This document shows, one piece after another, positions 20,521-64,000 of a DNA stretch of 64,000 nt. Within the stretch, counting starts at the first letter, position 1, and each line of letters starts with the position of its first letter. This DNA comes from Parcubacteria group bacterium GW2011_GWA2_42_14. Lineage in GTDB: Bacteria; Patescibacteriota; Minisyncoccia; Sungbacterales; GWA2-42-14. Location of the stretch: positions 4,132-68,131 of the forward strand of contig LCCV01000011.1 in NCBI GenBank assembly GCA_000998135.1, in the 5' to 3' direction. The position numbers were made by a program, and so were the translations under genes. Under the pieces are notes generated by a model that was not told the origin of the DNA, made no database searches, and worked only from the letters and a program-made list of their open reading frames with translations.

Positions 20521-20627
20521 ATCCCTTCCCAGTTTTACTGATTAGTTGTTAGAAAGGAAAATTTTTTTTTGAAACAAGAGAGAAGTTTGACCGAAAAAAC
20601 AATTCGTCCGTAAAACTGGGGAGGGAT
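20521..20627. mobile_element. Family J miniature inverted-repeat element (18-bp inverted ends ATCCCTTCCCAGTTTTAC)
   Basis: Perfect 18-bp inverted repeat. Related copy inside rnpB at 56815-56920. Confidence 0.65.
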
Positions 20628-34305: not shown

Positions 34306-34306
34306 A

Positions 34307-36558: not shown

Positions 36559-36648
36559 TCACAAATCAATCTCGAATTTTTTCGCGAATGCCTGTGGTGA
36601 GCTCGTCGAACCATTCGCGAAAAAAATTAGCGATTGTTTCGCGAATAG
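36558..36648. repeat. Family E element (AATCAATC..CGAAT...GCGAATGCCTGTGGTGAGCTCGTCGAACCATTCGCGAA...)
   Basis: The 38-bp core is identical at 42597-42645. Related copies at 30331-30394 and 31808-31880. Confidence 0.7.
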
Positions 36649-37323
36649 GTGATCTTGCCCAAAGTTGTAATCTTTTTCGGCCTTCCCGGTTCCGGCAAAG
36701 GAACCCAAGCCGACGTACTTGCCAAGCACTTCGGTTTTTTTCATTTTGACACCGGCAAAGAAATTGAGAAAACGGTTCATAATCCGGCAAAACGCAAAGA
36801 CCCGGTTATTAAGCGCGAGGCTAAGTTTTTTGATACCGGGTTTTTAAATACTCCTTCCTGGGTTGAAGATATAGTAAAGAAAAGGACCGAAGAATATGCT
36901 GAAGCCGGCCGGAACCTTGTTTTTTCCGGCTCTCCCAGAACCCTGCCCGAGGCCAAAGGGCTTTTCAAGGTTTTTAAAAAACTTTTCGGGCTCAAAAACG
37001 TTTTAATAATCTTTCTTGATATAGATGAGGAAACTTCAATATTTAGAAACAGCCATAGGAGGGTTTGTCACGATTGTCGTATTCCCGTAATCTGGTCTAA
37101 AGAAACCAAAGATTTGACTCATTGCCCTTATTGCGGCGGAAAATTGGTTAAGCGCATCTTGGACAACCCCCAAATTATAAAAGAACGCATCAAGGAATAT
37201 CGTAAAAAATCCGAGCCATCAATGAAGTTTTTGAAAAGCAAAGGAATAAAAATGATTTGCATAGACGGAGAAAAATATCCGGAGGTGGTATCTAAAGACA
37301 TCGCGTCACATTTTAACAAATAA
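36649..37323 (+). CDS. adk: Adenylate kinase (Zn-LID type)
   Basis: 'GLPGSGKGTQA'. LID 'RRVCHDCRIP...CPYCGGKLVKR'. Confidence 0.85.
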   Translation: MILPKVVIFFGLPGSGKGTQADVLAKHFGFFHFDTGKEIEKTVHNPAKRKDPVIKREAKFFDTGFLNTPSWVEDIVKKRTEEYAEAGRNLVFSGSPRTLPEAKGLFKVFKKLFGLKNVLIIFLDIDEETSIFRNSHRRVCHDCRIPVIWSKETKDLTHCPYCGGKLVKRILDNPQIIKERIKEYRKKSEPSMKFLKSKGIKMICIDGEKYPEVVSKDIASHFNK

Positions 37324-37488
37324 ATTAACCTAATTATTCTAATTAACCATGATGAAAATTCACCTAATTCCTAATTACCTAATTCACCTAATAAAATTTC
37401 TAATGTACTAATACTTAATTTAAAATTTTGGAATTTGATTATTTTATTAGAAATTAGGTGAATTAGACAATTAGAAATTATTAAGTAC
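37324..37488. repeat. Family M2 long palindrome of (CACCTAATT)/(AATTAGGTG) units between adk and the adk paralog
   Basis: TTAACCTAATTATTCTAATTAACC...CACCTAATTCCTAATTACCTAATTCACCTAAT...ATTAGAAATTAGGTGAATTAGACAATTAGAAATT. Confidence 0.55.
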
Positions 37489-37494
37489 TTTTTC

Positions 37495-38082
37495 TTGATT
37501 AAACCGAAATTTAAAAATAAAGAATACGTTTTGCTTTTAATTGGCCCTTCTGGTTCCGGAAAAGGTACGCAGGCCGATTTTTTGAAAAAACGGATTCCGC
37601 GCCTGAAAATTATTAGAACCGGACCGATGCTAAAAAAACTTGCCAGGCGTAATACAATAACAGCCGAATTTGTTCTGCCTTATTTAAAAAATGGGTTGCT
37701 TGTTCCGGGGTGGCTTGCCTCGTTCACCTGGATGAAGGTGGTTTTTGAAAGTGTGTTATCCGGAGAAAACTTGCTTTTTGACGGAGCGCCGCGCCAAGTC
37801 AGCGAGGCCCGGCTTCTGGATGAAGTGATGAATTGGCACAAAAAGCCGCTGCCAAGAGCGATATTTTTGGATATAGACCGCAAAGAGTCGCAAAGACGGC
37901 TTTTGTTAAGAGGCCGTTCCGATGATACTAATGAGGCAATTAAGGAACGCCTTAAATTTTATTATAAAAATGTAATTCCAGTAATCAGTTATTTTAAAAA
38001 AAATAAAAGATTAATCAGGGTTAATGGCGAACAGGAGCCGGAGAAAGTGGCGGAAGATATTAGAAAAGCTTTACATATTTAA
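37495..38082 (+). CDS. Adenylate kinase paralog (short LID)
   Basis: 'GPSGSGKGTQA'. Tandem to adk. Confidence 0.7.
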   Translation: MIKPKFKNKEYVLLLIGPSGSGKGTQADFLKKRIPRLKIIRTGPMLKKLARRNTITAEFVLPYLKNGLLVPGWLASFTWMKVVFESVLSGENLLFDGAPRQVSEARLLDEVMNWHKKPLPRAIFLDIDRKESQRRLLLRGRSDDTNEAIKERLKFYYKNVIPVISYFKKNKRLIRVNGEQEPEKVAEDIRKALHI

Positions 38083-38210
38083 AAATTCAAAATCCAAAGC
38101 ATCAAATCCCAAATAAATTCAAATTCCAAAATTCAAATTAAGTTTTGCCTTTTGGATATTTGGGTTTTGATATTATTTGGGATTTGGGATTTTGAAATTG
38201 GAATTTTTCG
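38083..38210. repeat. Family L (TCCCAAA)n / (TTTGGGA)n palindrome
   Basis: AAATCCAAAGCATCAAATCCCAAATAAATTC...TTTGGGTTTTGATATTATTTGGGATTTGGGATTTTG. The same heptamer (ATCCCAA)x4 occurs in-frame inside map at 38538-38568. Confidence 0.65.
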
Positions 38211-39062
38211 ATGATTGTTAAAACTCAAGATGAAATAGATACTCTTCGCGAATGCGGGCATCGTCTTGCAAAAATACTTGATAAGGTTGTAAAAGCGGTT
38301 AAGCCCGGAGTAAGCGCTAAAGATTTGGATAGGCTCGCCGAGAGCCTGATTTTGTCGCAAGGAGGAGAGCCGGTATTTAAGGGATATAAAATTAAAGAAG
38401 AAAAAAGAGCTTATCCGGCAAGTTTATGCGTATCAATAAATGATGAGATTGTGCATGGTATTCCCTTGGAAAAGAAGATTATTAAAGAGGGTGATATTGT
38501 GGGGTTGGATATAGGAATGAAGTGGCCTTCGGCTAAAATCCCAAATCCCAAATCCCAAATCCCAAACGACCTTTTTCGTCATTCTGAGGCAGAAGGCCGA
38601 AGAATCTCCGAGGGGCTTATTACCGATATGGCCGTAACCGTAGGCGTAGGAAAAATTTCCCAAGAAGCGGAAAAATTGTTGCGTTCAACGAAAGAATCAT
38701 TGGGCATAGGAATTTCAATTTTAAGGCCGGGAGTAAAACTCGGCGATTTGGGTTTTATAATCCGGAAACATTTAGAGAAAAATAACCTTTCAATTATTCG
38801 GGATTTATGCGGTCACGGCGTAGGAAAAGAGCTTCACGAAGAGCCGATGGTTTTGAATTATGGCAAAAAAGGAACCGGTCTTGAACTTCGCGAAGGAATG
38901 GTTATTGCCATTGAACCAATGGCAAGTTTGGGCGATTGGAAAATTAAAGTTGACTCCGACGGCTGGACAATTCGCACGGCCGATAAGTCGCTTGCCGCCC
39001 ATTTTGAGCACACGGTGGTAATAATTAAAAATGGCGCAGAAGTGTTGACAAAGATAAAATAA
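38211..39062 (+). CDS. map: Methionine aminopeptidase type I (with an in-frame repeat-derived insertion at ~38530-38616)
   Basis: MetAP fold motifs 'GDIVGLDIG', 'HGVGKELHEEP' and 'AHFEHTVVI'. Confidence 0.9.
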   Translation: MIVKTQDEIDTLRECGHRLAKILDKVVKAVKPGVSAKDLDRLAESLILSQGGEPVFKGYKIKEEKRAYPASLCVSINDEIVHGIPLEKKIIKEGDIVGLDIGMKWPSAKIPNPKSQIPNDLFRHSEAEGRRISEGLITDMAVTVGVGKISQEAEKLLRSTKESLGIGISILRPGVKLGDLGFIIRKHLEKNNLSIIRDLCGHGVGKELHEEPMVLNYGKKGTGLELREGMVIAIEPMASLGDWKIKVDSDGWTIRTADKSLAAHFEHTVVIIKNGAEVLTKIK

Positions 39063-39112
39063 AATGATATCTTTGTTTTAAGTCAGTATAAAATCAAGGA
39101 GAAGGGTAAAAA

Positions 39113-39463
39113 ATGAGAATAGAGGGTTTGGGAAAGCGCGCTTTATTTCTTATTCCATCGGTAAAGGTTTATAACCGCAAATATTCAAAAACCCGTCAGA
39201 GTATCGCTCGTACCATTCATAATTTTTTGAACGATACTTTTGGCGGATATACTTGCGCCTCCGGCAATATTTACGGATATTTTACTTCCGAGTCAGCCGA
39301 ATATGATGAATTGAGAGAGTTTAGGGTAGCGTTTAAAGAGGACGAGAAGAAAACCAAAGTTCCCAAGCTTCAGGAGTTCCTTTCAAAAATTTGCGAAGAT
39401 ATCGGTGAAGAGTGTATATATCTTGAGTGCGGTGAAGATGCTATGTTGGTTTATTCAAAGTAG
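39113..39463 (+). CDS. Hypothetical protein
   Basis: ORF only. Confidence 0.3.
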   Translation: MRIEGLGKRALFLIPSVKVYNRKYSKTRQSIARTIHNFLNDTFGGYTCASGNIYGYFTSESAEYDELREFRVAFKEDEKKTKVPKLQEFLSKICEDIGEECIYLECGEDAMLVYSK

Positions 39464-39522
39464 ATAGTTTGGCTCCTGGCGGGGCTTTTTTCTTTTTTTG
39501 AAATATGTGCGACAATAAATGT

Positions 39523-39909
39523 ATGCGTTATTTAGGCATTGATTACGGTCATAAAAGAATCGGAATTGCTATTTCTGATGAAGGGGGCGTTATGGCTTTT
39601 CCTTTTAGCCGGATTTTGGCGAAAAGCCCGGCTTTTATTGTTAAAGAAATTAAGAAAATAATAAAAAAGAAAAGAATAGAAAAGATTGTCCTTGGCTTGC
39701 CGATTACTTTCGGCGGCCAGGATTCATTGCAGACAAACGCAGTTAAGGAATTTGGCCGATATCTTGGTAAAATGTTACAATTACCGATAGAGTATGAAAA
39801 CGAGATTTTGAGCACAAAGATGGCGGAACGCGGCGGCACCGTCAAACAAAAAATCGATTCATCAGCCGCCGCCATTATTTTGCAGTCATATTTGGATAGA
39901 AACAAGTGA
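39523..39909 (+). CDS. ruvX: Holliday-junction resolvase-like RuvX/YqgF
   Basis: 'MRYLGIDYGHKRIGIAISDEGG'. Confidence 0.7.
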   Translation: MRYLGIDYGHKRIGIAISDEGGVMAFPFSRILAKSPAFIVKEIKKIIKKKRIEKIVLGLPITFGGQDSLQTNAVKEFGRYLGKMLQLPIEYENEILSTKMAERGGTVKQKIDSSAAAIILQSYLDRNK

Positions 39910-39973
39910 CAAGAAACATGAGACAAGGATGCGTTCCATGTCCATGTCCATGTCCATGTCACATGTCACATGA
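39900..39973. repeat. Family A heptamer-arm palindrome (variant with a (CATGTC)n hexamer run)
   Basis: AACAAGTGACAAGAAACATGAGACAAGG...CCATGTCCATGTCCATGTCCATGTCACATGTCACATG. Confidence 0.7.
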
Positions 39974-40705
39974 GTGTATTTAAGCTGGATTATTCCTTCC
40001 TATAACGAAGAACGCAGAATTGAAAAAACTCTTCATGAAGTTGACGCTTATTTGCGTTCTAAAAATTTTTCTGAAGGATATGAAATTATTGTTGCCAATT
40101 CCGCGTCCCGCGATAAAACTGCTGAAATAGTAGAAGGACTTATAATAGAAATTCCGCGCCTCCGCCTTTTAAATTTGGAAAACAAGGGTAAGGGTTGGGC
40201 GGTTAAAAAAGGTATGCTTGATGCCAAAGGCGATATCCGGTTGTTTTCCGATGCCGATAATTCAACCGCGCCGAATTATTTTGACGCCATGCTTCCCTTT
40301 TTTGAAAAAGGATATGACATTGTAATAAGTTCGCGTAACTCCAAAGACGTAGTCGGAGCTTCGCGCGATATCAAAGAACCGTGGTATAGAGAAATTATGG
40401 GGCGTATGGGAAATATGGTGATACAAATATTCGGAGTTTGGGGCATTCAAGATACGCAAAACGGTTTTAAGGCCATGACCGCCAAAGCCGCTAAGGATAT
40501 TTTTTCAAGGGCTTTAATGTACGACTTTTCTTTTGATATTGAGATGCTGGCTTTGGCAAAAAAAATGGGATACAAAATCGCGATTATTCCTATTCAATGG
40601 AAATTTGATCCGGATAGCAAGGTTACTTTAAAGGATTATATTCAAGTATTTCTTGATGTATTCAGGATTAGGTGGAATTTTATCACGAACAAATATGAGT
40701 TGTAG
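39974..40705 (+). CDS. Family-2 glycosyltransferase (Dpm1-like)
   Basis: 'SWIIPSYNEERRIEKTL'. 'FSDADNS' DxD-like. Confidence 0.7.
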   Translation: MYLSWIIPSYNEERRIEKTLHEVDAYLRSKNFSEGYEIIVANSASRDKTAEIVEGLIIEIPRLRLLNLENKGKGWAVKKGMLDAKGDIRLFSDADNSTAPNYFDAMLPFFEKGYDIVISSRNSKDVVGASRDIKEPWYREIMGRMGNMVIQIFGVWGIQDTQNGFKAMTAKAAKDIFSRALMYDFSFDIEMLALAKKMGYKIAIIPIQWKFDPDSKVTLKDYIQVFLDVFRIRWNFITNKYEL

Positions 40706-40776
40706 AGATATGAGACAAGGGACATGATACAAGGAATGTAAAACTTGTCGCATGTTGCATGTCACATGTCACATGA
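40706..40776. repeat. Family A heptamer-arm palindrome
   Basis: GAGATATGAGACAAGGGACATGATACAAGG...CATGTTGCATGTCACATGTCACATG. Confidence 0.7.
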
Positions 40777-41811
40777 GTGAAGAATATATCCGAATTAAGA
40801 CAAGACATCGTTTTCGGCGATTGGGTTGTTATTGCCACGGGCAGGGGCAGGCGTCCTCACGATTTTGCCAAAAAAGACGGAGACCATTGGTGGAAACGAC
40901 AGAAAAAGAATTGTCCATTTGACGAACTTATTGATTCGGCTTTTTATGTTGCTTTGAAAAGCGGAGAGGTTCATAAGCTTTCTAAAAAAAATAAAACAGT
41001 TCTTGAAAAGAATTGGTTTTTACAAATTATTCCCAATAAATATCCGGCTTTTGGAAAGGGGATTTGCGCCGTGCAAAGAAAAATCGGACCTTATTTTTGG
41101 GAAGACGGCGTGGGTTTTCATGATGTTATTATTACCCGGGCTCATGAAAAATCCGTTGCTTTAATGAGTCAAAAAGAAGCTGATATTTTGATACGGGCTT
41201 ATCGCGATAGATATTTGCAGTTAAAGGATGAAGATTGTGTTGAATACGTTTCTATTTTTCATAATCACGGGCCGGAAGCAGGAGCAAGCATTGCCCATCC
41301 GCATTCGCAAGTTATCGCTATCTCGGTGGTTCCGCCGGATGTGGGAAGAAGTATTAAGGGTTCGGCGGTTTTTTATCATAAAAATAAAAAATGCGTGCAT
41401 TGCGTAATGATTGATTTTGAAAAGCGCGAAAAAATCAGGATTATTTATGAAAATGAAAAATTTGTGGTTTTCGCGCCCTTTGCTTCCCGCACTGCTTTTG
41501 AAGTTAGGGTTTTCCCCAAAAAACATTCTCCGAATTTTGAGTCCATTCATAACAGCGAAATTACTTTTTTGGCAGACGCTTTAAAAATGGCGCTGGCTAA
41601 ATTATGCAAGGGTTTGGGCAATCCTTCTTATAATTTTTTCATCCATACTTCTCCGGCGGCCAATATTGAGGCCTTAAGGCATTATCATTGGCATATAGAA
41701 ATTTTGCCTAAAACCGCGATTTGGGCCGGATTTGAACTGGGAACTGGTATTGATATTTCAAGCATAGCGCCGGAAAAAGCAGCATCCTTTTTGCGAAAAA
41801 TCAAAAATTAA
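40777..41811 (+). CDS. galT: Galactose-1-phosphate uridylyltransferase-like (HIT superfamily)
   Basis: 'FHNHGPEAGASIAHPHSQV'. Confidence 0.65.
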   Translation: MKNISELRQDIVFGDWVVIATGRGRRPHDFAKKDGDHWWKRQKKNCPFDELIDSAFYVALKSGEVHKLSKKNKTVLEKNWFLQIIPNKYPAFGKGICAVQRKIGPYFWEDGVGFHDVIITRAHEKSVALMSQKEADILIRAYRDRYLQLKDEDCVEYVSIFHNHGPEAGASIAHPHSQVIAISVVPPDVGRSIKGSAVFYHKNKKCVHCVMIDFEKREKIRIIYENEKFVVFAPFASRTAFEVRVFPKKHSPNFESIHNSEITFLADALKMALAKLCKGLGNPSYNFFIHTSPAANIEALRHYHWHIEILPKTAIWAGFELGTGIDISSIAPEKAASFLRKIKN

Positions 41812-41812
41812 A

Positions 41813-41902
41813 GCGACTCCAATATACAAATAGCACTCGAATGACTCGAATAAACGAAAATATCATTCGAGACATTCGAGTGAATTAGAGTATTAGAGTC
41901 GC
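41813..41902. repeat. Family B palindromic element
   Basis: GCGACTCCAATATACAAATAGCACTCGAATGACTCG...CATTCGAGTGAATTAGAGTATTAGAGTCGC. Confidence 0.7.
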
Positions 41903-41912
41903 ATAATTTACA

Positions 41913-42572
41913 ATGGAGTTTATTCTTGGTATTGATTTAGTTACTCTAATTAAGACGATTGGGTATCTGGGAATTTTTGGAATTGTCTTTGCGGAATCAG
42001 GGTTGTTTTTAGGTTTTTTTCTGCCCGGTGATTCTTTGCTTTTTACAGCCGGATTTTTGGCGTCCCAGGGTTTTTTTAATATTTTATTGCTGATGGCGCT
42101 TTGTTTTTTAGGGGCGGTACTGGGAGATAGTTTCGGTTATGCTTTCGGCAGAAAAACCGGGCCGGCAATTTTTAACCGGGAAGATTCTTTGTTATTTCAT
42201 AAACGGCATTTGGAAAGAGCAAAATCATTTTATGAAAAGTATGGTGGAAAAACCATAATCTTGGCAAGATTTATGCCAATCATCCGTACTTTTGCTCCGA
42301 TTCTTGCCGGAGTTGGCGAGATGCGTTATAAAACCTTTCTTTTTTACAACATAATTGGCGGAGTGATTTGGGGAGTTGGCATGCCGTTTTTAGGATATTT
42401 TTTAGGAAATGTTATTCCGGACGTTGATAAATATATTGTACCAATGGTGGTTGCGATTATTGTTCTCTCTTTTTTGCCGCCGGTGATTCATATTCTTAAA
42501 GACAAGGAACATCGTGAAGAAATAATAACTGTTTTAAAAAAGTATTTTAGGAAATCAAATATTGGCATTTAA
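41913..42572 (+). CDS. DedA/SNARE-associated family membrane protein
   Basis: 'FLPGDSLLFTAGFLA'. Confidence 0.6.
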   Translation: MEFILGIDLVTLIKTIGYLGIFGIVFAESGLFLGFFLPGDSLLFTAGFLASQGFFNILLLMALCFLGAVLGDSFGYAFGRKTGPAIFNREDSLLFHKRHLERAKSFYEKYGGKTIILARFMPIIRTFAPILAGVGEMRYKTFLFYNIIGGVIWGVGMPFLGYFLGNVIPDVDKYIVPMVVAIIVLSFLPPVIHILKDKEHREEIITVLKKYFRKSNIGI

Positions 42573-42573
42573 A

Positions 42574-42660
42574 TATCACTAATCAATCGCGAATATTCGC
42601 GAATGCCTGTGGTGAGCTCGTCGAACCATTCGCGAATAAAATTAGAGATTGATTAGAGAA
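42574..42660. repeat. Family E element
   Basis: Same 'GCGAATGCCTGTGGTGAGCTCGTCGAACCATTCGCGAA' core. Confidence 0.7.
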
Positions 42661-42662
42661 TA

Positions 42663-43442
42663 ATGGTAAAAAAAATTATAATTGCCAACTGGAAAATGAA
42701 TCCGCCAACGCTTAAGGAAGCAAAGCGGCTTTTTGATAAAGTAAAAAAAGGAATTCGCGGGGTTAAAAACACTGAAGTTATAATTTGTCCGCCCTTTCTT
42801 TATTTGTCGGAGTTAAAAGCTAAAAGCTATAAGCTAAAAGCTCAATTGGGGGCTCAAGATGTTTTTTGGCAGGCAGGCGGCCCTTTTACCGGTGAGATTT
42901 CACCAGAGATGCTTAAAGAATACGGTGTTACCCATGTTATAATTGGGCATTCGGAAAGAAAGAAATGGCTGGGTGAGACCGATGAAATGATTAATAAAAA
43001 AGTTAAAGCCGCATTAAAATATGGCTTAATTCCGGTTCTTTGCGTAGGAGAACGGGAAAGGGAGGTTCAAGGAGAAATTCCTCATATTGTTGAAGAGCAG
43101 GTGCGAGCCGCTCTGAAAGGAATTAGGAAAGGGGATTTTAAAAACGGAATAATCGCTTATGAGCCGGTTTGGGCAATAGGAACGGGCAAGGCCGAAACCC
43201 CGGATAATGCCACCAGGGCCGCGTTATATATCAGAAAGATTGTGAAGAGCGTTTTGGGAAGTAATACTGTGGAAAAAATCCGCGTAATTTACGGCGGGTC
43301 GGTTAATGCGCAAAACGCGGCATTGTTTATCGCCAAAGATATTCGCGGGATGGAAGGAATGCTGGTGGGAGGAGCAAGTTTGAAGGCAGAGGAGTTTATA
43401 CAAATTGTTAAAAATGTAGTAGAAGCGGATGGACGTAAATGA
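42663..43442 (+). CDS. tpiA: Triosephosphate isomerase
   Basis: 'IAYEPVWAIGTGK'. Confidence 0.9.
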   Translation: MVKKIIIANWKMNPPTLKEAKRLFDKVKKGIRGVKNTEVIICPPFLYLSELKAKSYKLKAQLGAQDVFWQAGGPFTGEISPEMLKEYGVTHVIIGHSERKKWLGETDEMINKKVKAALKYGLIPVLCVGEREREVQGEIPHIVEEQVRAALKGIRKGDFKNGIIAYEPVWAIGTGKAETPDNATRAALYIRKIVKSVLGSNTVEKIRVIYGGSVNAQNAALFIAKDIRGMEGMLVGGASLKAEEFIQIVKNVVEADGRK

Positions 43443-43465
43443 TTACGCGGATTAACGCGAAAAGA

Positions 43466-43498
43466 AAAAGCGGCATGAAATTTTATGCCGTTTTTATT
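43466..43498. terminator. Hairpin terminator between tpiA and the opposite-strand genes
   Basis: AGCGGCATGAAATTTTATGCCGTTTTTATTTTT. Confidence 0.4.
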
Positions 43499-43771
43499 TT
43501 TATGTTTTTAATTTGTTTTTGAATCTTTGCCAGAAAAATATTGCGGAAAGCGGTAGCCATATACCTATAGTTCTTGGAATATGGATAAAAGCAATATTTA
43601 CCTCTTGATGTTGAAGAAATACATAACCAACTAAACTCAGTGTAATTAAAAAACTAACTCCGAGGCTTATTAGAGAATATTTGATAATATTTTTTGCCCC
43701 TTTTTTCAAAGAAACCTTTTTTCTTTTTGGCAGTGGTTATAACGTAATTATAGCAAAGGAGTCATTGTATA

Positions 43772-53658: not shown

Positions 53659-53800
53659 GGTCAAAATAGAAAATAAATATGTTGATAGAATAGTTAATTT
53701 GGCCAGCAATAAAAACCTAATTGTTTCTAAAAATTATTACATCACGTTAACAACATACTGACAAACTGGAGTATGTTGGTATGTTGTAAAATGATTTTTT

Positions 53801-55360
53801 ATGGAAGAAATTGAAAAAATAGAAAACTTAAAAAAGAAACCGGAGATACATACGGAAGTATTGGAGGACTGGGAAGCAAAAACCGAAGAAGAAAAAAATG
53901 CCGTAAATATTGTTTCCCTCCTAAACAGGCAAGGTGTTGCTTATTTTGCCGGCGGTTATGTGCGCGACCTTTTGATAAATCGCGAATTCAGCAAGCATTT
54001 TATTGCTAAAGACATTGATATTGCCACAAGTATTTCTCTTGAAGAAGCAAAAACCTTGCTTGAGAAATCAGGATTTCATACCAAGATCGCGGGCGCTGAT
54101 TTTAAAACATTAAAAGTGTTTCAAGAAGGCGGTGAAGCAGAGGCAATTGATGTGGCCACGTTCCGTCAGGAAGGAAAATATCGGGATGGCAGGCATCCGG
54201 ATTTGGAAGACCTTGTTTTTATAAAAGACCCGGAAAAGGATGCCGAGCGCCGGGATTTTACTATCAATGCATTATTTTTCGAACCTGATACGAAAAAAAT
54301 AATTGATTTTGTCGGCGGTATTGAAGATTTAAAAAATAAAGTTTTGCGGCCGGTTGGGGATACGAAACAGCGTTTTCAGGAGGATTATGTCCGCATGCTG
54401 CGTTACGTTAGATTCAGGAATAAATACGGTTTTACGTTTTCGCGCGAGGTCCGTGATGTTGTTCGTGATGATGCGGATAAAATATTGCGAAAGCCAAGTG
54501 AAAAGCTATTTCAGGAGCTTGATTTAATAATGAAGCTGGATAAAAACTATATGGCTGTTGCTGATATGGCGCGTTTGGGTTTGCTGAAGCATCTTATGCC
54601 GGAATTAGACGAGTTAAAAAATGTCATGCATCCTAAAGAAGCGCCGTATCATAAAGAAGGAACCGTTTTCAGGCATACTTTGGAGGCGTTAAGGGGTTTT
54701 TCTAGAAAAGAAGGGGTTGATAAAATTCGGGAGGTTTTTGGCTTGGAAAATTCTGTCAAAATAGATGAAGTGATTAAGCGGTTTTATGAAAAATACGGAA
54801 CAGAAATTTCTTGGGCAGTACTTTTTCATGATTTAGGAAAGAGGACAAAAAAGAGTACGCGCGAATTGCCGGGCGGCCAGACCAGAACTACTTTTGTCGG
54901 CCATGAACTTGATTCCCGCGAAATGGCCGGAAAAATTGCTGCTCGTTTGAGGTTTTCTAATGTTAAAAAAGAAAAAATTTTGTGGCTGGTTGAAAATCAT
55001 TTACTGCCGCGCGACCTGCCCGTGATGAAGCAGTCAAAAAGAAGGGCTATGCTCCAGCATCCGTGGATTGAAGAGCTATTGTTTGTTGCTTTGGCCGATG
55101 AGCTTGGAAATTTTCCGTCAAGCACCAAAGATTTTGAGGCGGCTTATAAATTATTGAAAGAAGAAAGAGTGCGCGTTCCTGAGCCCAAAGAATTGGTAAG
55201 CGGAAAAGAACTTATGAATAAGTTTAATTTAAAATCCGGGCCGATGATAGGGAGATTAAAATCAGCCATCCGCGAAGCGCAATTGGAAGACAAAATAAAA
55301 ACGCCGAAGGAGGCATTGCGTTTTGCCGAAGAAAATTTAAAAAATTTATATATTCAATAA
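53801..55360 (+). CDS. cca: CCA-adding enzyme / poly(A) polymerase family with HD domain
   Basis: 'FAGGYVRDLLINREFS..DIDIAT' Pol-beta NTase. HD region 'FHDLGK'. Confidence 0.7.
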   Translation: MEEIEKIENLKKKPEIHTEVLEDWEAKTEEEKNAVNIVSLLNRQGVAYFAGGYVRDLLINREFSKHFIAKDIDIATSISLEEAKTLLEKSGFHTKIAGADFKTLKVFQEGGEAEAIDVATFRQEGKYRDGRHPDLEDLVFIKDPEKDAERRDFTINALFFEPDTKKIIDFVGGIEDLKNKVLRPVGDTKQRFQEDYVRMLRYVRFRNKYGFTFSREVRDVVRDDADKILRKPSEKLFQELDLIMKLDKNYMAVADMARLGLLKHLMPELDELKNVMHPKEAPYHKEGTVFRHTLEALRGFSRKEGVDKIREVFGLENSVKIDEVIKRFYEKYGTEISWAVLFHDLGKRTKKSTRELPGGQTRTTFVGHELDSREMAGKIAARLRFSNVKKEKILWLVENHLLPRDLPVMKQSKRRAMLQHPWIEELLFVALADELGNFPSSTKDFEAAYKLLKEERVRVPEPKELVSGKELMNKFNLKSGPMIGRLKSAIREAQLEDKIKTPKEALRFAEENLKNLYIQ

Positions 55361-55364
55361 ATTT

Positions 55365-56369
55365 ATGGATAGTGAAAAAATTTATAAACCAAAATTAAAG
55401 GTTTTTAAAGAGCGGGCTGAACGTATACCGAAGTCAGAATATGACAGCATGGTAGGAGAACTTTTAGTTAAATTCGGAAACCAATTTAAAAGGATTGAGC
55501 CGACCGAACCCATGCAAGATAAGGATAGTTTTGGAGATATTGATGTAATTTTTATGCCCAAGGGGTCGGTTGATGAGGGATATGAGTCTTACTTTCGGGA
55601 AATTTTTGGAAAATCATTTCTTGGCTATAACAGAACCCCTCATTCACACGTTCATTCGTTATTGCTTTCGGTTTCTTCCCAAAAATCAGTTCAGGCAGAT
55701 TTTATTAGGGCAGAGGACCAGACCGATTTTGAAAGGAAATTGATGTATTACTCTAAAGGACATTTTTCATCCGCGGTGGGCATGATGGCTAAAAAGCTCC
55801 ATTTTAAATATAGCACTGAAGGATTTTTTAAGAGATTTAAGGATAAACGAGGAAATTGGCACGATATTTTTATTAGTGATAAACTTTCGGACGGCTTGAA
55901 AATTCTTGGTTTTGACCGTTATGAATTTGAAGATATTAAAACAACGCCGGATATAGTTGAATTCATATCTTCCTCTTCTCTTTTTGATTCCAGTTATTTT
56001 CAGTTTAAAGACCTTCCGCGCCGAGACCGGGAGTCCATAAAAAGAAATGCCGTTGAAGAGTATATCACGCAAAAACTTGCTATTAAGAATCAAACTAGGA
56101 TAATTGACGATGAAGATGAATTTTTCAGAAAGTTTTTTCCTGAAGAATTTGAAAAATTTAAAACGGAAGCGGAAAGAATAGAAAAAGAAACTTATAAAAC
56201 AGGAAATATCAACGGTGAGGTTGTTATGAAAGCCTTCGGCTTGAAGCCATGCCCTGAAGTCGGAAAGGTTTTAAAATTTATTAGCGATTTTTATCCGAAT
56301 CTTGAAGATTTGACAGATGATGTCATTAAGGCCGTTAAAAAGAATATTTTGGAAAAAGAAGCGTTTTAA
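55365..56369 (+). CDS. Hypothetical protein with a possible minimal nucleotidyltransferase motif
   Basis: 'DKDSFGDIDVIFMPKG' resembles the NTase hG[GS]...DhDh motif. Confidence 0.3.
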   Translation: MDSEKIYKPKLKVFKERAERIPKSEYDSMVGELLVKFGNQFKRIEPTEPMQDKDSFGDIDVIFMPKGSVDEGYESYFREIFGKSFLGYNRTPHSHVHSLLLSVSSQKSVQADFIRAEDQTDFERKLMYYSKGHFSSAVGMMAKKLHFKYSTEGFFKRFKDKRGNWHDIFISDKLSDGLKILGFDRYEFEDIKTTPDIVEFISSSSLFDSSYFQFKDLPRRDRESIKRNAVEEYITQKLAIKNQTRIIDDEDEFFRKFFPEEFEKFKTEAERIEKETYKTGNINGEVVMKAFGLKPCPEVGKVLKFISDFYPNLEDLTDDVIKAVKKNILEKEAF

Positions 56370-56385
56370 CCTTTGTTAGGTTTAT

Positions 56386-56430
56386 AAAAAATATTCTCAT
56401 ATTCTTAAGAATATGAGAATATTTTTTTCT
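56386..56430. terminator. Perfect palindromic (bidirectional) terminator
   Basis: AAAAAATATTCTCATATTCTTAAGAATATGAGAATATTTTTTT. Confidence 0.45.
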
Positions 56431-56431
56431 C

Positions 56432-56459
56432 TTGCATTTTTAAAATTATTTGATATAAT
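56432..56459 (+). promoter_or_regulatory. Sigma-70-like promoter upstream of rnpB
   Basis: TTGCAT, 16-bp spacer, TATAAT, ~15 nt upstream of the proposed rnpB 5' end. Confidence 0.35.
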
Positions 56460-56651
56460 ATGATTATCGTATGCTGGATGGTCGCCGAGCACCTATTCCG
56501 TCAGATATTTGATTGTATATGGTTAAAATCTGGAATAATCAGCAGAAAATTATATCGTTGTATGTGGCAGAATAGGTGCTCGGAGGAAAGTCCGAACATT
56601 CGGTCCTAAACGCGCCTTAGGCGCGTCGGACAATGGTAGTGGGTAATTCCC

Positions 56652-56775
56652 ATCTTTCTTGTCGCAGACAAGAGCGCGGAGTTACGCGGATAGCACGCGG
56701 AATAACGCAGAAAATTTCTGCGGCGTTCTGCGTCAGGTCTGCGACCGTCAGCGTTCTCGCCTGTGGCGAGAGAAG
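56652..56775. repeat. Family K ~125-bp element (CTTGTCGCAGACAAGAGCGCGGAnTTACGCGGA...ACGCAGAA...CTCGCCTGTGGCGAGAGAA) within rnpB
   Basis: Near-identical copy at 57062-57184. Related CGCGGA/CGCAGA-rich stretches in lepA at 62540-62590 and 63370-63430. Confidence 0.6.
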
Positions 56776-56814
56776 AGGTGCGAACAGAGACGCCGAGCAT
56801 TGAAAGATGCGAGG

Positions 56815-56920
56815 CGTCCCTCTCCACTTTTACTGATAACCTATTTTTTGTTATGTTGTCTTTTGTGAAAGATAACAGTTAAAAATTTCAAGCGGTTGTT
56901 AGTAAAAGTGGGGAGGGACG
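56815..56920. mobile_element. Family J element within rnpB (at the P12 position)
   Basis: CGTCCCTCTCCACTTTTACTGATAACC...GGTTGTTAGTAAAAGTGGGGAGGGACG. Confidence 0.6.
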
Positions 56921-57061
56921 AGTTCCAATGGCAACATCGGAAGTGAAACGGCTAAACCCTTACTTGGATGCAAGAGGACCTGTTTACGGCTAATTTATGT
57001 CAAAGAACAGGAAAAATAACTCGCTTGAGCCCGAGAGTAATTGAGGGCCTAGACAGATGAC

Positions 57062-57184
57062 CATCTCTCTTGTCGCAGACAAGAGCGCGGAATTACGCGG
57101 ACAGTACGCGGAATAACGCAGAATTTTCAGTGTTGTTCGACGTTCGTTCCGCGACTATCAGCGCTCTCGTCTGCGGCGAGAGAA
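57062..57184. repeat. Family K element within rnpB (immediately 5' of CR-IV)
   Basis: TCTCTTGTCGCAGACAAGAGCGCGGAATTACGCGGACAGTACGCGGAATAACGCAGAA...GTCTGCGGCGAGAGAAC. Confidence 0.6.
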
Positions 57185-57462
57185 CAGAATTCGGCTTATA
57201 GGCGTGCGATACGGAATCCGTCCTTAAGGGGCGGGTTTTTGTTATGTAATATTGGTGTGTGCATAAAATGTGATTGATTCGGGAAAACCGTTATATTATA
57301 CTTAAAGGGTATTTTTTAAGTACTTTTAACGAAATTATAAATATTCAGCGTTTTTCAACGTATCCATCAGTGTAAATTCAGCTTTTATGGCTATAAAAGC
57401 GGATAAAACGCGGATAAGTACGCCGATATTATGCTGAAAATTATATTTCGTAATTCAGTAAT

Positions 57463-62120: not shown

Positions 62121-62354
62121 TTGCGGCCCTTTTTATTTTTTGCAGAAACTGTTCCATTTGATACAGTATTATATATGGGCACTATTAGAAATTTCGTTAT
62201 AATCGCGCACATTGACCCCGTTAGAAGTCCGACACGGCCCCAAAGTTTTCAGCGCAACTCTAAGCGAATGCGGCTTATGCCTTACGCCTACTGCATTAAA
62301 AAGCCTCATTTTCGACTTCTAACGGGGTTGACCACGGAAATTAATGAATATTAG
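62121..62354 (+). pseudogene. Decayed duplicate of the lepA 5' end fused to a CCCCGTTAGAA element
   Basis: '[14 protein letters not shown]' then read-through of a family-H element, then a stop. Confidence 0.4.
62216..62327. mobile_element. Family H element inserted into the 5' end of lepA, flanked by a degenerate ~33-bp duplication of the lepA start
   Basis: CCCCGTTAGAAGTCC...CGACTTCTAACGGGG. Flanks are ATTAGAAATTTCGTTATAATCGCGCACATTGAC and ATTAGAAACTTTGTTATAATTGCCCACATAGATC. Confidence 0.65.
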
Positions 62355-64000
62355 AAACTTTGTTATAATTGCCCACATAGATCATGGCAAAAGTACTTTG
62401 GCCGACAGGTTTTTGGAATTGACGGGAACAATTGAGAAGCGGAAAATGCGCGAACAATTTTTGGATACTATGGAGTTGGAAAGAGAAAAAGGCATCACCA
62501 TAAAAATGCAGCCTGTGAGGATGCTGTGGCATCCTCACCGCGGAAAAAACGCGGACTACACGCAGAACAACGCAGAATCCACACTGCTTTACGAAGACCT
62601 GACATATAAAATTCGAGGGGTGTTGTTTCAGGTGAGAAAAAAAATCGGACTTGGACACAAAGAACAGGTATACCATAATGCTCTTGAAATAGAATTTAAA
62701 AATGCCGGACTCTTATATGAAAGCAAGAAAAATATTCCTATTTTGTACGAAGGACGAAATATTGGTACATACCAGCCGGATTTCGTAGTTGAAAATAAAG
62801 TGCTTATAGAATTAAAAGCATTGCCAGAAATTGGCAGGCCTCAAGTTGAACAGACGTGGTCATATCCTAAGGGCTGTGAATATAAAGTTGCCTTGTTGGT
62901 TAATTACGGTTCTACTGACTTGGAAATAAAGCGTATTGTTTATGATACGGCACGTAACGTTTCAGCGTTGTCTGCGTTAAGTCAGCATATTTCTGCGGGC
63001 GTGTCTGATCAAATTGAGAATGATGAATATATTCTCAATTTGATCGACACGCCAGGACATGTAGATTTCACTTACGAAGTTTCTCGCGCACTTGCCTGCG
63101 TTGAGGGAGCGATTTTGCTGGTTGACGCGACCCAGGGAGTGCAGGCGCAGACTATTGCCAATTTGCATTTGGCGAAACAGGCCGGACTCGCAATAATCCC
63201 GGCCATCAATAAAATTGACCTTGCCGGTGCCCGTATTAAAGAAACCGAGGATGAATTGGTTAATCTTTTGGGCGTTAAGCTTGAGGATATTTTTAAGGTT
63301 TCCGGCAAAACCGGAGAAGGTGTTGAAAAATTGTTGCAGGCCGTTATTGAATTAATTCCGCCGCCCCATGGCGCGGACAATCGCGGACAAAATGCAGACA
63401 ATGGCGGATATTTTCCGCGACTGTCCGCGCTTGCCCCGTTAGATAGCGCTCGCGGCGCATCTAACGGGGTGAATCTGCGTGAGTCCGCGAATGCGCCGCG
63501 CGCATTAATTTTTGATTCCCATTTTGATAATTTCCGCGGTGTAATCGCGCATGTGCGGGTTTTTGACGGAGAGTTTAAAAAACAGGATAAAATTTTAATG
63601 GCGGTGGCCAAAAGCAAGGCCGACATAATGGAGTTGGGTTTTTTTATGCCCGAGCTTTTACCACAGGAAAAATTAAGTACGGGAGAGATAGGATATATTG
63701 CTACCGGAATCAAGGAGCCGGAAGGGGTTCGTATAGGGGACACGGTTATATTGGCGCGTGACGCGGAAAATAAAGTAGAAATATTTTTTGGGTACCGCCA
63801 GCCGAAGCCCATGGTTTTTGCGAGCGTATATCCGGAGGATGCCGATGATTATGAAAAATTGCGCGATTCTTTGAAAAAAATTAAATTAAACGACGCCTCT
63901 TTGTTTTTTGAGCCGGAAGCATCCGACGCTTTGGGTAGGGGTTTTCGCGCCGGATTCCTCGGTATGCTTCATATGGAAATAATAGGGGAGAGATTAAAAC
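62344..64000 (+). CDS. lepA: Elongation factor 4 (LepA), 5' partial to the window end, with two in-frame insertions
   Basis: '[20 protein letters not shown]'. '[19 protein letters not shown]'. Stop-free frame to 64000. GxxExxY domain insertion at ~62524-63025. Family-H-derived insertion at ~63370-63480. Confidence 0.85.

What the first reader, a model, noticed from the sequence alone, without database searches (positions are those of the whole stretch)
56476..57223. RNase P RNA gene carrying three palindromic repeat insertions (about 750 nt instead of about 350-400)
Seen in sequence:
- Type-A RNase P landmarks occur in the correct order. CR-I/P4-5' 'GGAGGAAAGUCCGAAC'. 'UGCGAACAGAGACGCC', matching E. 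coli 'UGCAACAGAGAGCAAACC'. 'ACGGCUAAACCCUUACUUGGAUGCAAGAGG', matching 'GGUAAACUCCACCCGGAGCAAGG'. 'GGCCUAGACAGAUGACC', matching 'GGCCUAGAUGAAUGAC'. CR-IV/P4-3' 'ACAGAAUUCGGCUUAUAGG'.
- P4 shows compensatory GG-to-AA and CC-to-UU changes.
- A P1 pairing GGAUGG (56476) with CCGUCC (57218) is present, and a TTGCAT-16-TATAAT promoter sits just upstream.
- Three blocks between these landmarks are copies of repeat families found elsewhere in the window. Two are near-identical ~125-bp family-K copies at 56652-56775 and 57062-57184. One is a family-J element (56815-56920) whose 18-bp inverted ends also occur at 20521-20627.
- Each inserted block is internally palindromic, so in the RNA it would extrude as an extra helix and leave the catalytic core intact.

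Inference: this is an essential ribozyme tolerating mobile hairpin insertions. It says something about how these elements spread, and it may go unannotated by covariance models because of its length.
Basis: partly seen in the sequence, partly recalled or inferred. Interest (0 to 1): 0.72.

Follow-up and report, generated by a model that had tools for sequence, protein, structure and literature searches.

The report
Bloated RNase P RNA gene
This is a real gene for the tRNA-processing ribozyme RNase P in an uncultured Sungbacteria-like (CPR) bacterium, about twice the normal length because four outer helices are long palindromic hairpins, so standard annotation misses it.

Summary
Window 56466-57214 (+) is a type-A RNase P RNA gene of about 749 nt. 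Rfam misses it at its gathering score. The syntenic ortholog in a close relative (L001) aligns full-length to RF00010 (78 bits, E 5e-24). With the hairpin blocks removed in silico, the window sequence matches a profile of 14 Rfam-validated Patescibacteria rnpB genes almost end to end (195 bits, E 3e-60). Core helices P1, P2, P4, P5/7, P8, P12, P14, P15 and P18 are intact.

K1 is P9, J is P13 and K2 is P19. Relatives L001 and L019 carry 13-27 nt hairpins there. A fourth expansion, P3 (99 nt), is shared with L001.

Corrections:
- P1 is 56466-75/57201-10.
- The K copies are about 80% identical and occur only inside rnpB in this window.

Extended, undetected RNase P RNAs are already reported for CPR bacteria. 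New here is that the extensions belong to repeat families. Several copies of one family also recur in rnpB of three other Patescibacteria, one with a GIY-YIG gene inside P3. Mobility and retention in the mature RNA are inferred.

The parts
56385..56430 (+). Terminator-like perfect hairpin ending the upstream ORF (55365-56369). It separates rnpB as its own transcription unit.
   Evidence: 21-bp palindrome followed by a T run. An equivalent hairpin lies upstream of rnpB in L001.
56432..56459 (+). Promoter: TTGCAT (56432-37), 16-nt spacer, TATAAT (56454-59). The start is predicted about 56466.
   Evidence: Read directly. The -10 and its distance to P1 are conserved in L001 and L002. It was not listed by the consensus scan because the -35 matches only 3 of 6.
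56466..57214 (+). rnpB: type-A RNase P RNA gene, about 749 nt.
   Evidence: Ortholog L001 1890-2418 aligns to RF00010 positions 1-367, 78.2 bits, E 5.2e-24. The window with hairpins trimmed scores 195 bits, E 2.7e-60, against a profile of 14 Rfam-validated Patescibacteria rnpB genes. 60 of 75 consensus pairs are kept, and most of the misses lie in the artificially trimmed helices.
56466..56475 (+). P1 5' strand. It pairs with 57201-57210.
   Evidence: 9/9 consensus pairs; 10 bp in the MFE fold.
56477..56483 (+). P2 5' strand GAUGGUC. It pairs with GACCAUC 57059-57065.
   Evidence: 8/8 consensus pairs; coordinates.
56485..56583 (+). P3 expanded to a 99-nt hairpin. This is an older expansion, shared with L001 at 89% identity. 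Its termini resemble the J-type family.
   Evidence: 23-nt arms, 87% complementary. -40.7 kcal/mol, z -6.7. L019 has a 17-nt P3. The termini AGCACCUAUU/AAUAGGUGCU are shared with an L002 S-domain element.
56582..56597 (+). CR-I with the P4 5' strand (AAG[U]CCGAA 56588-56596, bulged U56591).
   Evidence: Invariant in the 16-sequence alignment. P4 8/8 pairs.
56597..56635 (+). P5 5' strand (56597-56601, pairs with 56966-56970), then a lineage-typical extra hairpin between P5 and P7 (56602-56635).
   Evidence: P5/7 5/5 pairs. The hairpin is seen in the folds. This region is variable in all the Patescibacteria aligned.
56639..56653 (+). P8 (GUGGG-UAAUU-CCCAU).
   Evidence: 5/5 pairs. The string GGTAGTGGGTAATTCCCATC is shared with 47 metagenome loci.
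56655..56776 (+). K1: a 122-nt palindromic element occupying the whole of helix P9.
   Evidence: -69.8 kcal/mol, z -6.8. L001 has a 23-nt hairpin and L019 a 14-nt hairpin here. The P9 segment is 16 nt in most of about 45 relatives and 123 nt here. The element is also present in a second assembly of the same organism, L124.
56777..56815 (+). P10/P11 5' strands with the conserved J11/12 (GGUGCGAACAGAGACG), then P12 (56792-56815).
   Evidence: Conserved columns. P12 4/4 pairs. Stem 56792-56801/56806-56815.
56816..56919 (+). J: a 104-nt palindromic element occupying helix P13.
   Evidence: 27-nt arms, 89% complementary. -57 kcal/mol, z -10.2. L001 has a 27-nt P13 and L019 a 13-nt P13. A second family copy lies at 20521-20627.
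56921..56944 (+). P14 with a GCAA tetraloop, retained.
   Evidence: 6/7 pairs; fold.
56943..57058 (+). The 3' strands of P11, P10, P7 and P5; the P15-17 region; P18 (57029-57048, GUAA loop); and the conserved CCUAGACAGAUGA.
   Evidence: Conserved columns. P15 3/3 and P18 6/8 pairs.
57065..57185 (+). K2: a 121-nt palindromic element between the 3' strands of P2 and P4, at the position of the optional helix P19.
   Evidence: -69.7 kcal/mol, z -8.9. L001 has an 18-nt hairpin and L019 a 22-nt hairpin here. About 80-83% identical to K1 overall; left arm 94%.
57184..57210 (+). CR-IV/V with the P4 3' strand (UUCGGCUU 57190-57197), then the P1 3' strand (57201-57210).
   Evidence: ACAGAAUUCGGCUUA is essentially invariant, with one substitution in one of the 16 aligned sequences. 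Pairs counted.
57213..57239 (+). Intrinsic terminator (GGAAUCCGUCC-UUA-AGGGGCGGGUUUU).
   Evidence: Terminator scan. Conserved in L001.
20521..20627 (+). Second copy of the J family, in the rpsJ-rplC spacer. Same termini and length, different interior.
   Evidence: -51.5 kcal/mol, z -9.4. Aligned with J.
63371..63430 (+). Short hairpin built of K-like GCGCGGACAA units, lying in frame inside lepA.
   Evidence: (I14). Absent from the LepA of L001 and L002.

Best explanation
This is the organism's bona fide, syntenic rnpB: a class-A RNase P RNA. It has its own promoter and terminator.

The catalytic and specificity core is conserved: P1, P2, the P4 pseudoknot with its bulged U, P5/7, P8, P10-12, P14, P15 and P18. 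Four peripheral helices are each replaced by a long, self-complementary repeat element: P3 (99 nt), P9 (K1, 122 nt), P13 (J, 104 nt) and P19 (K2, 121 nt).

The stem formed by each element's own termini directly abuts the conserved junction nucleotides. In the transcript each element therefore simply extends outward as a longer version of the helix it replaces. The helices whose loops make tertiary contacts keep their normal size and GNRA loops (P8, P14 with GCAA, P18 with GUAA).

The elements belong to palindromic repeat families of this genome and its relatives. These also fill operon spacers and sit in frame in lepA. They were acquired at different times: P3 before the split from L001, and K1, J and K2 after it.

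Shown: identity, architecture, insertion sites, presence/absence among relatives, and family membership of J.
Inferred: that the elements spread as selfish DNA and survive only where they are tolerated, that they stay in the mature RNA, and that the ribozyme is active.
For: Identity:
- Ortholog L001 aligns full-length to RF00010, E 5e-24.
- A profile of 14 Rfam-validated Patescibacteria rnpB genes hits the trimmed window sequence at 195 bits over profile positions 40-361. The best of 50 shuffles has E = 12.
- The RNAalifold consensus of 16 sequences recovers the type-A helices, with 59 of 75 pairs showing compensatory change. The window keeps all pairs in P1, P2, P4, P5/7, P8, P12 and P15.

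Synteny: the order CCA-adding enzyme, rnpB, TPR protein, MurJ, LepA is the same in L001 and L002.

Insertion sites: L001 has about 93% identical flanking core but 18-27 nt hairpins at P9, P13 and P19. L019 has 13-22 nt hairpins there. The P9 segment is 16 nt in most of about 45 relatives.

Hairpins: z -6.7 to -10.2. With only P1, P2 and P5/7 enforced, every element folds locally and the core helices form.

Families:
- J has a second copy at 20521.
- J, the window and L001 P3, and two L002 rnpB elements share termini and length.
- A second assembly of the same organism carries K1.

Recurrence: L174 has 3 copies, L166 2-3 copies and L002 2 copies of one family inside rnpB.
Against: - The native sequence fails the Rfam gathering score, and even L001 scores 78 against a cut-off of 100.
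- K has no copy outside rnpB in 64 kb. No target-site duplication or linked transposase was seen. K2 could therefore be an intragenic copy of K1; both are preceded by CCATCT.
- The unconstrained MFE pairs K1 with K2 in a helix of about 100 bp. It is 11 kcal/mol more stable than the native-like fold (-341.3 against -330.2). That fold would break P5/7, so folding must be kinetically or protein guided, or the hairpins must be removed.
- The stronger folding of the + strand is not specific evidence for RNA-level selection. The whole window shows the same bias (mean -24.3 against -20.1 kcal/mol per 120 nt).
- There are no expression or activity data. The rest of the genome was not available to exclude a second rnpB or a protein-only RNase P.
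Confidence: 0.8

Rival explanations
1. The hairpins behave like rRNA intervening sequences. They are transcribed but cut out by RNase III or a similar enzyme. The active RNase P RNA would then be a non-covalent assembly of three to five fragments, not a 750-nt molecule.
For: - Each element is a long, nearly continuous duplex of 26-46 bp placed at a helix tip. This is the geometry of RNase III-processed IVSs (established knowledge of 23S rRNA IVSs).
- Removal would eliminate the K1xK2 misfolding hazard.
- CPR structural RNA genes commonly carry insertions: 48% of 16S and 82% of 23S genes (PMC11270868).
Against: No data here bear on processing. Nothing in the sequence marks cleavage sites. Other CPR rnpB helices vary continuously in length, which does not demand excision.
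Confidence: 0.15
2. The expansions are not insertions of mobile DNA. They grew in place, by slippage of the 8-11 nt units that make up the arms, by fold-back template switching, or by intragenic gene conversion. K2 would be a copy of K1 made within the gene.
For: - The K arms are runs of ACGCGGA-like units with a period of about 10 nt.
- K occurs only in rnpB in the window.
- K1 and K2 share the 5' flank CCATCT, and their left arms are 94% identical while their right arms have diverged.
- No target-site duplications are seen.
Against: - J has an independent copy in the rpsJ-rplC spacer. J-type termini occur in different helices of different genomes.
- Hairpins built from similar units lie in lepA and in many operon spacers.
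- Three other organisms each carry several copies of their own family in rnpB. Repeated independent growth in place is an unlikely explanation for that.
Confidence: 0.2
3. The locus is a decaying rnpB pseudogene riddled with repeats. RNase P function is supplied from elsewhere.
For: Unusual length. Below the Rfam threshold. Potential to misfold.
Against: - Every universally conserved block is intact, and the core helices pair.
- All disruptions fall exactly on dispensable helix tips.
- The promoter and terminator are conserved with L001.
- The orthologs in L001 and L002 are at the same position and are equally unusual.
Confidence: 0.04
4. Assembly artefact: repeats were collapsed or mis-joined into the rnpB locus.
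For: A second assembly, L124, departs from the window in the loop of J.
Against: L124 is 99.9% identical over window 53775-56864, including P3, K1 and the left arm of J. Each block replaces a helix in register, and the flanking core is continuous and conserved. A mis-join would not produce that.
Confidence: 0.03

Closest known systems
Diverged RNase P RNAs of CPR/Patescibacteria (Lui et al. 2021, PMC8172020)
   Same: Class-A RNase P RNAs with large extensions of helices. They fall below Rfam cut-offs (10 of 35 closed CPR genomes) and need manual refolding. This locus is a case of that.
   Different: That paper describes extended or missing helices but, in the passages read, not what the extensions are made of. 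Here the extensions are members of palindromic repeat families, and one family can occupy several helices of one gene. At about 749 nt the RNA is roughly twice the 330-460 nt of the Rfam-detected Patescibacteria genes.
STRR repeats inside helix P12 of rnpB in heterocyst-forming cyanobacteria (Vioque 1997, Nucleic Acids Res; recalled from my own knowledge, and cited in reference lists found)
   Same: A genome-wide repeat family sits inside a peripheral helix of a functional RNase P RNA and lengthens it.
   Different: STRR are short tandem heptamers in one helix (P12). Here there are four separate hairpin elements of 100-120 nt in P3, P9, P13 and P19, and they replace the whole helix.
Rickettsia palindromic elements (RPE)
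   Same: Selfish palindromic elements of about 100-150 nt that persist in tolerant sites of essential genes. [quoted passage not shown] This genome likewise has hairpin-encoded in-frame inserts in lepA and elements in rnpB.
   Different: A different phylum, and sequence homology to RPEs was not tested. Here several elements sit in one small RNA gene. Many elements have arms built of tandem 7-11 nt units and termini that are themselves small palindromes.
Insertion sequences and introns in CPR rRNA and tRNA genes (PMC11270868)
   Same: Structural RNA genes of CPR bacteria are frequent hosts of inserted DNA, often with homing endonuclease genes. In relative L166 a GIY-YIG ORF sits in P3 of rnpB.
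   Different: The rRNA insertions are mostly group-I-like or group-II-like introns that encode LAGLIDADG enzymes. K and J are plain 100-120 nt hairpins with no intron signature (no intron family in the permissive Rfam scan) and no ORF.
MITEs and REP/BIME-type extragenic palindromes
   Same: Short non-coding elements with inverted termini, in several copies, forming hairpins in transcripts, and showing presence/absence between relatives.
   Different: No target-site duplication and no partner transposase were identified. The elements replace an existing hairpin rather than interrupting a sequence.

Membership tests
Bacterial RNase P RNA class A (Rfam RF00010) | Score at or above the Rfam gathering threshold (100 bits) | tested here: not met
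   The native window gives no hit at gathering and fragments of 25.4 and 14.3 bits in permissive mode. The ortholog L001 reaches 78.2 bits, E 5e-24, over the full model. The failure is explained by the four large insertions. 14 compact Patescibacteria homologs pass at 104-174 bits.
Bacterial RNase P RNA class A (Rfam RF00010) | Conserved regions CR-I to CR-V in the canonical order | tested here: met
   All blocks are present and align with invariant columns of 16 sequences. The profile HMM gives 195 bits after trimming.
Bacterial RNase P RNA class A (Rfam RF00010) | P4 long-range pseudoknot with a bulged U | tested here: met
   8/8 pairs: 56588-56596 with 57190-57197, U56591 bulged.
Bacterial RNase P RNA class A (Rfam RF00010) | Core helices P1, P2, P3, P5/7, P8, P9, P10-12 and P15 in type-A topology | tested here: met
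   P1 9/9, P2 8/8, P5/7 5/5, P8 5/5, P12 4/4 and P15 3/3. P3 and P9 are present as long hairpins. The constrained fold is consistent with this.
Bacterial RNase P RNA class A (Rfam RF00010) | Type-A specific P13/P14 and P18 with GNRA loops (rather than type-B P5.1, P10.1 and P15.1) | tested here: met
   P14 6/7 with a GCAA loop. P18 6/8 with a GUAA loop. P13 is present as the J hairpin. An extra hairpin between P5 and P7 is shared by all the Patescibacteria aligned.
Bacterial RNase P RNA class A (Rfam RF00010) | Catalyses 5' maturation of pre-tRNA; sole essential copy | not testable with these tools
   No expression, activity or whole-genome data. Synteny with L001 and L002 supports orthology.
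MITE-like mobile palindromic element (K, J) | Terminal inverted repeats with hairpin potential | tested here: met
MITE-like mobile palindromic element (K, J) | Several dispersed copies in the genome | tested here: inconclusive
   J has 2 copies in 64 kb, plus related termini in P3 and in L002. K has 2 copies, both inside rnpB, plus one short hairpin of similar units in lepA. The whole genome was not available.
MITE-like mobile palindromic element (K, J) | Target-site duplication | tested here: not met
   No direct repeat flanks K1, K2, J or the copy at 20521 (sequence read). The elements abut the conserved junction nucleotides.
MITE-like mobile palindromic element (K, J) | Presence/absence polymorphism between related genomes | tested here: met
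   L001 and L019 have short native hairpins at all three sites. L001 carries a different 100-nt palindrome in P15-17 where the window has none.
MITE-like mobile palindromic element (K, J) | Cognate autonomous element encoding a transposase or nuclease | tested here: inconclusive
   None with K or J termini in the window. In L166 a GIY-YIG ORF in P3 is bounded by the same 10-11 nt termini (CCAGCCCTTT / AAAGGGCTGG) as two ORF-less hairpins in the same rnpB.
Group I / group II intron | Intron core structure recognisable by a covariance model | tested here: not met
   The permissive Rfam scan of 56300-57400 lists no intron family. The elements are simple hairpins of 100-122 nt.
IVS-type helix-tip insert excised by RNase III | Post-transcriptional excision leaving a fragmented RNA | not testable with these tools
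   Only the geometry fits: a long duplex replacing a helix tip.

The most novel reading that the evidence does not exclude
Patescibacteria harbour a class of nested-palindrome hairpin elements. Their termini are themselves small hairpins, and some larger relatives carry a small nuclease gene: GIY-YIG inside P3 of rnpB in L166, and a PD-(D/E)XK domain in frame in lepA here.

These elements would preferentially replace hairpins in highly conserved, highly transcribed genes. rnpB would be a recurrent landing site, accumulating several copies of one family. The result would be the largest bacterial RNase P RNAs known (about 750-900 nt), either working with these arms attached or assembled from fragments after excision.
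Probability: 0.3. Interest if true: 0.75.

Novelty: new variant of a known kind. Interest (0 to 1): 0.58.

Why it matters
- Annotation: rnpB is used as a completeness marker for closed CPR genomes. This gene and at least five relatives (L001, L002, L166, L174, L132) are invisible to Rfam at standard thresholds. Masking hairpin repeats before the search would recover them.
- Ribozyme biology: the pattern is a natural map of where a class-A RNase P RNA tolerates 100-120 nt of extra duplex (P3, P9, P13, P19, and the P5-P7 linker and P15-17 in relatives) and where it does not (P4, P8, P14, P18). It raises a testable folding problem, because two copies of one palindrome in a single RNA favour a non-native long-range helix.
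- Genome evolution: even the compact genomes of CPR bacteria carry selfish palindromes. These persist inside essential RNA and protein genes, as RPEs do in Rickettsia.

Tried and rejected
- A protein-guided scan of GTDB genomes with the neighbouring CCA-adding enzyme found no relative. The organism is not among the species representatives. Taxonomy instead came from named hits to CCA and L2 (Candidatus Sungbacteria, 56-78% identity) and from rnpB similarity to Parcubacteria MAGs.
I substituted three things: an HMM built from Rfam-validated homologs, pair counting on a consensus structure, and cmscan of the less-expanded ortholog.
- MAFFT misaligned my artificial stubs for P3, P9 and P13 (0/7, 0/3 and 4/6 pairs). 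These misses reflect the trimming, not the RNA.
- cmscan assigned the L001 hairpin CGCGCC-UUA-GGCGCG to P8. I rejected this in favour of GUGGG-UAAUU-CCCAU, which carries the conserved GGUAG...GGGUAA context in all 16 sequences.
- The stronger + strand folding of the elements first looked like RNA-level selection. A window-wide scan shows the same bias everywhere, so I do not count it as evidence.
- BLAST of K, J and the relatives' elements against all 174 fetched loci found no K or J copies outside this organism.
- The L166 P9 insert has the same segment length (123 nt) and a similar central CGCAGAAAA..TTCTGC motif as K, but no significant alignment. I treat it as the same architecture only.
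- L124 breaks off in the J loop into unrelated sequence. I read this as a chimeric join in that assembly, not as an alternative allele.
- The microRNA family 'hits' are generic long-hairpin matches far below their thresholds.
Full report
**What is at the coordinates.**
Rfam at its gathering thresholds finds only one tRNA in the whole 64-kb window and no RNase P. A permissive scan of 56300-57400 gives only two RNaseP_bact_a fragments: 25.4 bits at 56904-57131 and 14.3 bits at 57132-57214. The prediction that covariance models would miss this gene is therefore correct.

**Identity through relatives.**
- The upstream gene is a CCA-adding enzyme. Downstream lie a TPR protein, MurJ and LepA.
- Homologs of the CCA enzyme at 83% and 57% identity lie on metagenome contigs L001 and L002 with the same gene order. 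Each has an unannotated gap of 850-980 nt at the same place.
- Those gaps hold sequences clearly homologous to the window locus.
- L001 1890-2418 aligns to the full RF00010 model (positions 1-367) at 78.2 bits, E 5.2e-24.
- An exact search for the P4 motif GGAGGAAAGTCCGAACA in one genome per species returned at least 120 loci, many from Patescibacteria. Fourteen of the 18 scanned are compact rnpB genes of 330-460 nt that pass Rfam at 104-174 bits.
- The best matches to the window gene are Parcubacteria MAGs. Ribosomal protein L2 and the CCA enzyme point to Candidatus Sungbacteria.

**In-silico deletion.**
Infernal could not be applied to an edited sequence. I built a profile HMM from the 14 Rfam-validated genes instead.
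- The native window sequence matches in two pieces (146.8 and 36.8 bits).
- With the hairpins trimmed to stubs it reaches about 194-195 bits (E about 1e-60), equal to the compact relative L019 (190 bits).
- The best of 50 shuffles has E = 12.

An RNAalifold consensus of the trimmed sequence plus 15 relatives recovers P1, P2, P3, P5/7, P8, P9, P12, P13, P14, P15 and P18. Compensatory changes occur in 59 of 75 pairs. The window sequence keeps 60 of 75 pairs, counting the P4 pseudoknot added by hand:

| Helix | Pairs kept |
|---|---|
| P1 | 9/9 |
| P2 | 8/8 |
| P4 | 8/8 |
| P5/7 | 5/5 |
| P8 | 5/5 |
| P12 | 4/4 |
| P14 | 6/7 |
| P15 | 3/3 |
| P18 | 6/8 |

Most of the misses fall in the helices I had cut and MAFFT misplaced; the others are one pair in P14 and two in P18.

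**Corrected anatomy.**
- P1 is 56466-56475/57201-57210.
- GAUGGUC 56477-83 pairs with GACCAUC 57059-65 as P2. Its CCGUCC lies in an intrinsic terminator at 57213-57239.
- A TATAAT box ends 7 nt before P1. It is conserved in L001 and L002.
- A strong hairpin at 56385-56430 ends the upstream ORF.
- The gene is thus a separate unit of about 749 nt.

**Where the extra 350-400 nt lie.**
I compared the window with L001 (flanking core about 93% identical) and with L019, a compact 386-nt rnpB from a Parcubacteria MAG. Each block occupies one entire helix.

| Helix | Window element | L001 | L019 |
|---|---|---|---|
| P9 | K1, 56655-56776 | CCCGCUUUUUAGCGGG | CCCGCUUUAGCGGG |
| P13 | J, 56816-56919 | 27 nt | 13 nt |
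| P19 position (between the 3' strands of P2 and P4) | K2, 57065-57185 | 18 nt | 22 nt |
| P3 | 99-nt hairpin, 56485-56583 | shared, 89% identical | 17 nt |

- The P3 hairpin predates the split from L001.
- L001 has its own 100-nt palindrome in P15-17 where the window has none.
- In about 45 metagenome relatives that share the P8 sequence, the P9 segment is 16 nt in most and 123 nt here.
- All four elements fold as autonomous hairpins, z -6.7 to -10.2.
- When only P1, P2 and P5/7 are enforced, all four elements fold locally around an intact core.
- The helices whose loops make tertiary contacts keep normal size and GNRA loops (P8, P14 GCAA, P18 GUAA).
- P9 had already lost its GNRA loop in L001 and L019. 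This may explain why it tolerates replacement (inference).

**Are the blocks repeat-family members?**
- J: yes. A second element with the same termini and length but a different interior lies in the rpsJ-rplC spacer at 20521-20627. That gives 4 terminus matches against 0.15 expected.
- J, that second copy, the P3 hairpins of the window and L001, and two elements within the L002 rnpB (P3 and S-domain) align as one loose family. They are 100-107 nt long with TTTTAC/GTAAAA-containing termini.
- K: only partly. K1 and K2 are about 80-83% identical (left arm 94%) and are the only copies in the window.
- A shorter hairpin of similar GCGCGGACAA units lies in frame in lepA.
- No target-site duplications or partner transposase were found. 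Both K copies follow CCATCT, so an intragenic origin for K2 cannot be excluded.

**A complication.**
K1 and K2 are copies of one palindrome, so they are also complementary to each other. The unconstrained MFE of the full RNA pairs them in a long-range helix of about 100 bp (-341.3 kcal/mol). That helix excludes P5/7. It is 11 kcal/mol more stable than the native-like fold (-330.2). Function would then depend on co-transcriptional local folding, on proteins, or on removal of the hairpins. The last possibility is the IVS-like rival.

**Context.**
- The window includes the S10-spc ribosomal protein operon, from EF-Tu to SecY. Its intergenic spacers are filled with hairpins whose arms are tandem 7-11 nt units.
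- The strongest hairpins in the window are K1, K2 and the lepA insert.
- LepA carries two in-frame insertions that are absent or much shorter in L001 and L002. One holds a PD-(D/E)XK nuclease domain (Pfam E 1e-29). The other is encoded by hairpins.

**The same phenomenon recurs elsewhere.**
- L174 has three copies of one palindromic family, in the P5-P7 linker, P9 and P15-17. Its distance between the two P4 strands is 741 nt.
- L166 has two hairpins with CCAGCCCTTT/AAAGGGCTGG termini. It also has an 84-aa GIY-YIG ORF (Pfam E 8e-16) inside a P3 bounded by the same termini.
- None of these is detected by Rfam at gathering.

**Comparison with what is known.**
- Lui et al. 2021 already reported that CPR RNase P RNAs have large helix extensions or missing helices, and that 10 of 35 escaped the model thresholds (PMC8172020). 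The existence of such a gene is therefore not new.
- Repeats inside rnpB have a precedent in the STRR sequences in P12 of heterocystous cyanobacteria (Vioque 1997; from my own knowledge and the reference lists).
- Palindromic elements in both protein genes and a structural RNA gene are known from Rickettsia (PMC1458961).
- CPR rRNA genes are rich in intron-like insertions with homing endonucleases (PMC11270868).
- I found no report that CPR rnpB extensions are repeat-family palindromes that replace whole helices, several per gene and recurrently. The paper library is incomplete, so this absence is weak evidence.

**Verdict.**
This is a genuine but ordinary-in-function rnpB with an unusual, element-derived architecture. 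I class it as a new variant of a known kind. Interest is moderate, and it would rise if the homing or 'safe harbour' reading, or a fragmented ribozyme, were shown.

Noticed in passing
window 62344-64000 (+), lepA; inserts at about 62640-63130 and 63365-63470: LepA carries two in-frame insertions relative to its orthologs in L001 and L002. One is about 165 aa and contains a PD-(D/E)XK nuclease domain (PF13366, E 1e-29). The other is about 30 aa and is encoded by two hairpins, one of them built of K-like GCGCGGACAA units. At the first site L001 has a different insert of about 40 aa that looks like a translated tandem-unit hairpin.
   Followed up: partly
L166 (Ga0118677_10079633), minus strand, oriented positions about 459-760: In the rnpB of another Patescibacteria contig, helix P3 contains a complete 84-aa GIY-YIG endonuclease ORF (Pfam E 8e-16). 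It is bounded by CCAGCCCTTT/AAAGAGCTGG. Two ORF-less 86-nt hairpins with nearly the same termini sit in the P5-P7 linker and in P13 of the same gene. This looks like an autonomous element with its non-autonomous derivatives.
   Followed up: partly
L174 (Ga0194047_10025823) 369-552, 572-746, 871-1040: Three copies of one palindromic family of 170-185 nt lie in three different helices of one rnpB. The termini, CCAGTGCGTAGCACTGG and CCATTGCTGCGCAATGG, are themselves small palindromes. The distance between the two P4 strands is 741 nt, so this gene is even larger than the window's. A related element lies near the P4 motif in L038, and a shorter match near it in L033.
   Followed up: partly
window 24000-43500, intergenic spacers of the S10-spc ribosomal protein operon and downstream genes: Many spacers hold hairpins whose two arms are tandem runs of 7-11 nt units, for example GACAAGA/CATGTCA at 27618-27686, 28027-28126, 32674-32742 and 34752-34820, and CGAATGA units at 29823-29916, 33751-33844 and 41808-41902. 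There are several sequence families with one shared architecture.
   Followed up: partly
window 20466-24081: An interval of about 3.6 kb separates rpsJ (S10) from rplC (L3), genes that are normally adjacent. It holds the second J element, a further hairpin at 21276-21411, and three paralogous ORFs of 114-142 aa (21693-22037, 22424-22771, 22893-23321) with no Pfam match. L3 itself matches its Pfam profile only over residues 101-186.
   Followed up: no
window 56655-56779 with 57060-57183: K1 and K2 can pair with each other over about 100 bp. This is the thermodynamic minimum for the full transcript and is incompatible with P5/7.
   Followed up: yes
L002 3978-4080 and 4344-4450: The L002 rnpB (about 700 nt) has two copies of one hairpin family (CCAGC..ATTTTAC...TCTTCAGTAAAAT..GCTGG), one as P3 and one in the S-domain. 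The 4-nt blocks next to the termini differ between the two copies.
   Followed up: partly
L124 3091-3407: A second assembly of the same organism (ENA ERZ28563591, 99.9% identical over window 53775-56864) switches to unrelated sequence in the loop of the J hairpin. This is probably a chimeric join at the palindrome.
   Followed up: partly
window 36649-37323 and 37495-38082: Two adenylate kinase genes lie in tandem after secY, separated by a hairpin-rich spacer.
   Followed up: no
window 55365-56369: The ORF between the CCA-adding enzyme and rnpB has no Pfam family above threshold. It gives a faint match (E 0.007) to the C-terminal tRNA nucleotidyltransferase domain 2. It is absent from L001, and L002 has a NUDIX gene at that position.
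   Followed up: no
L003 11525-11652: A LOOT RNA (RF03000, 88.5 bits) lies on the contig of a more distant relative. That contig has no rnpB next to its CCA-enzyme gene.
   Followed up: no
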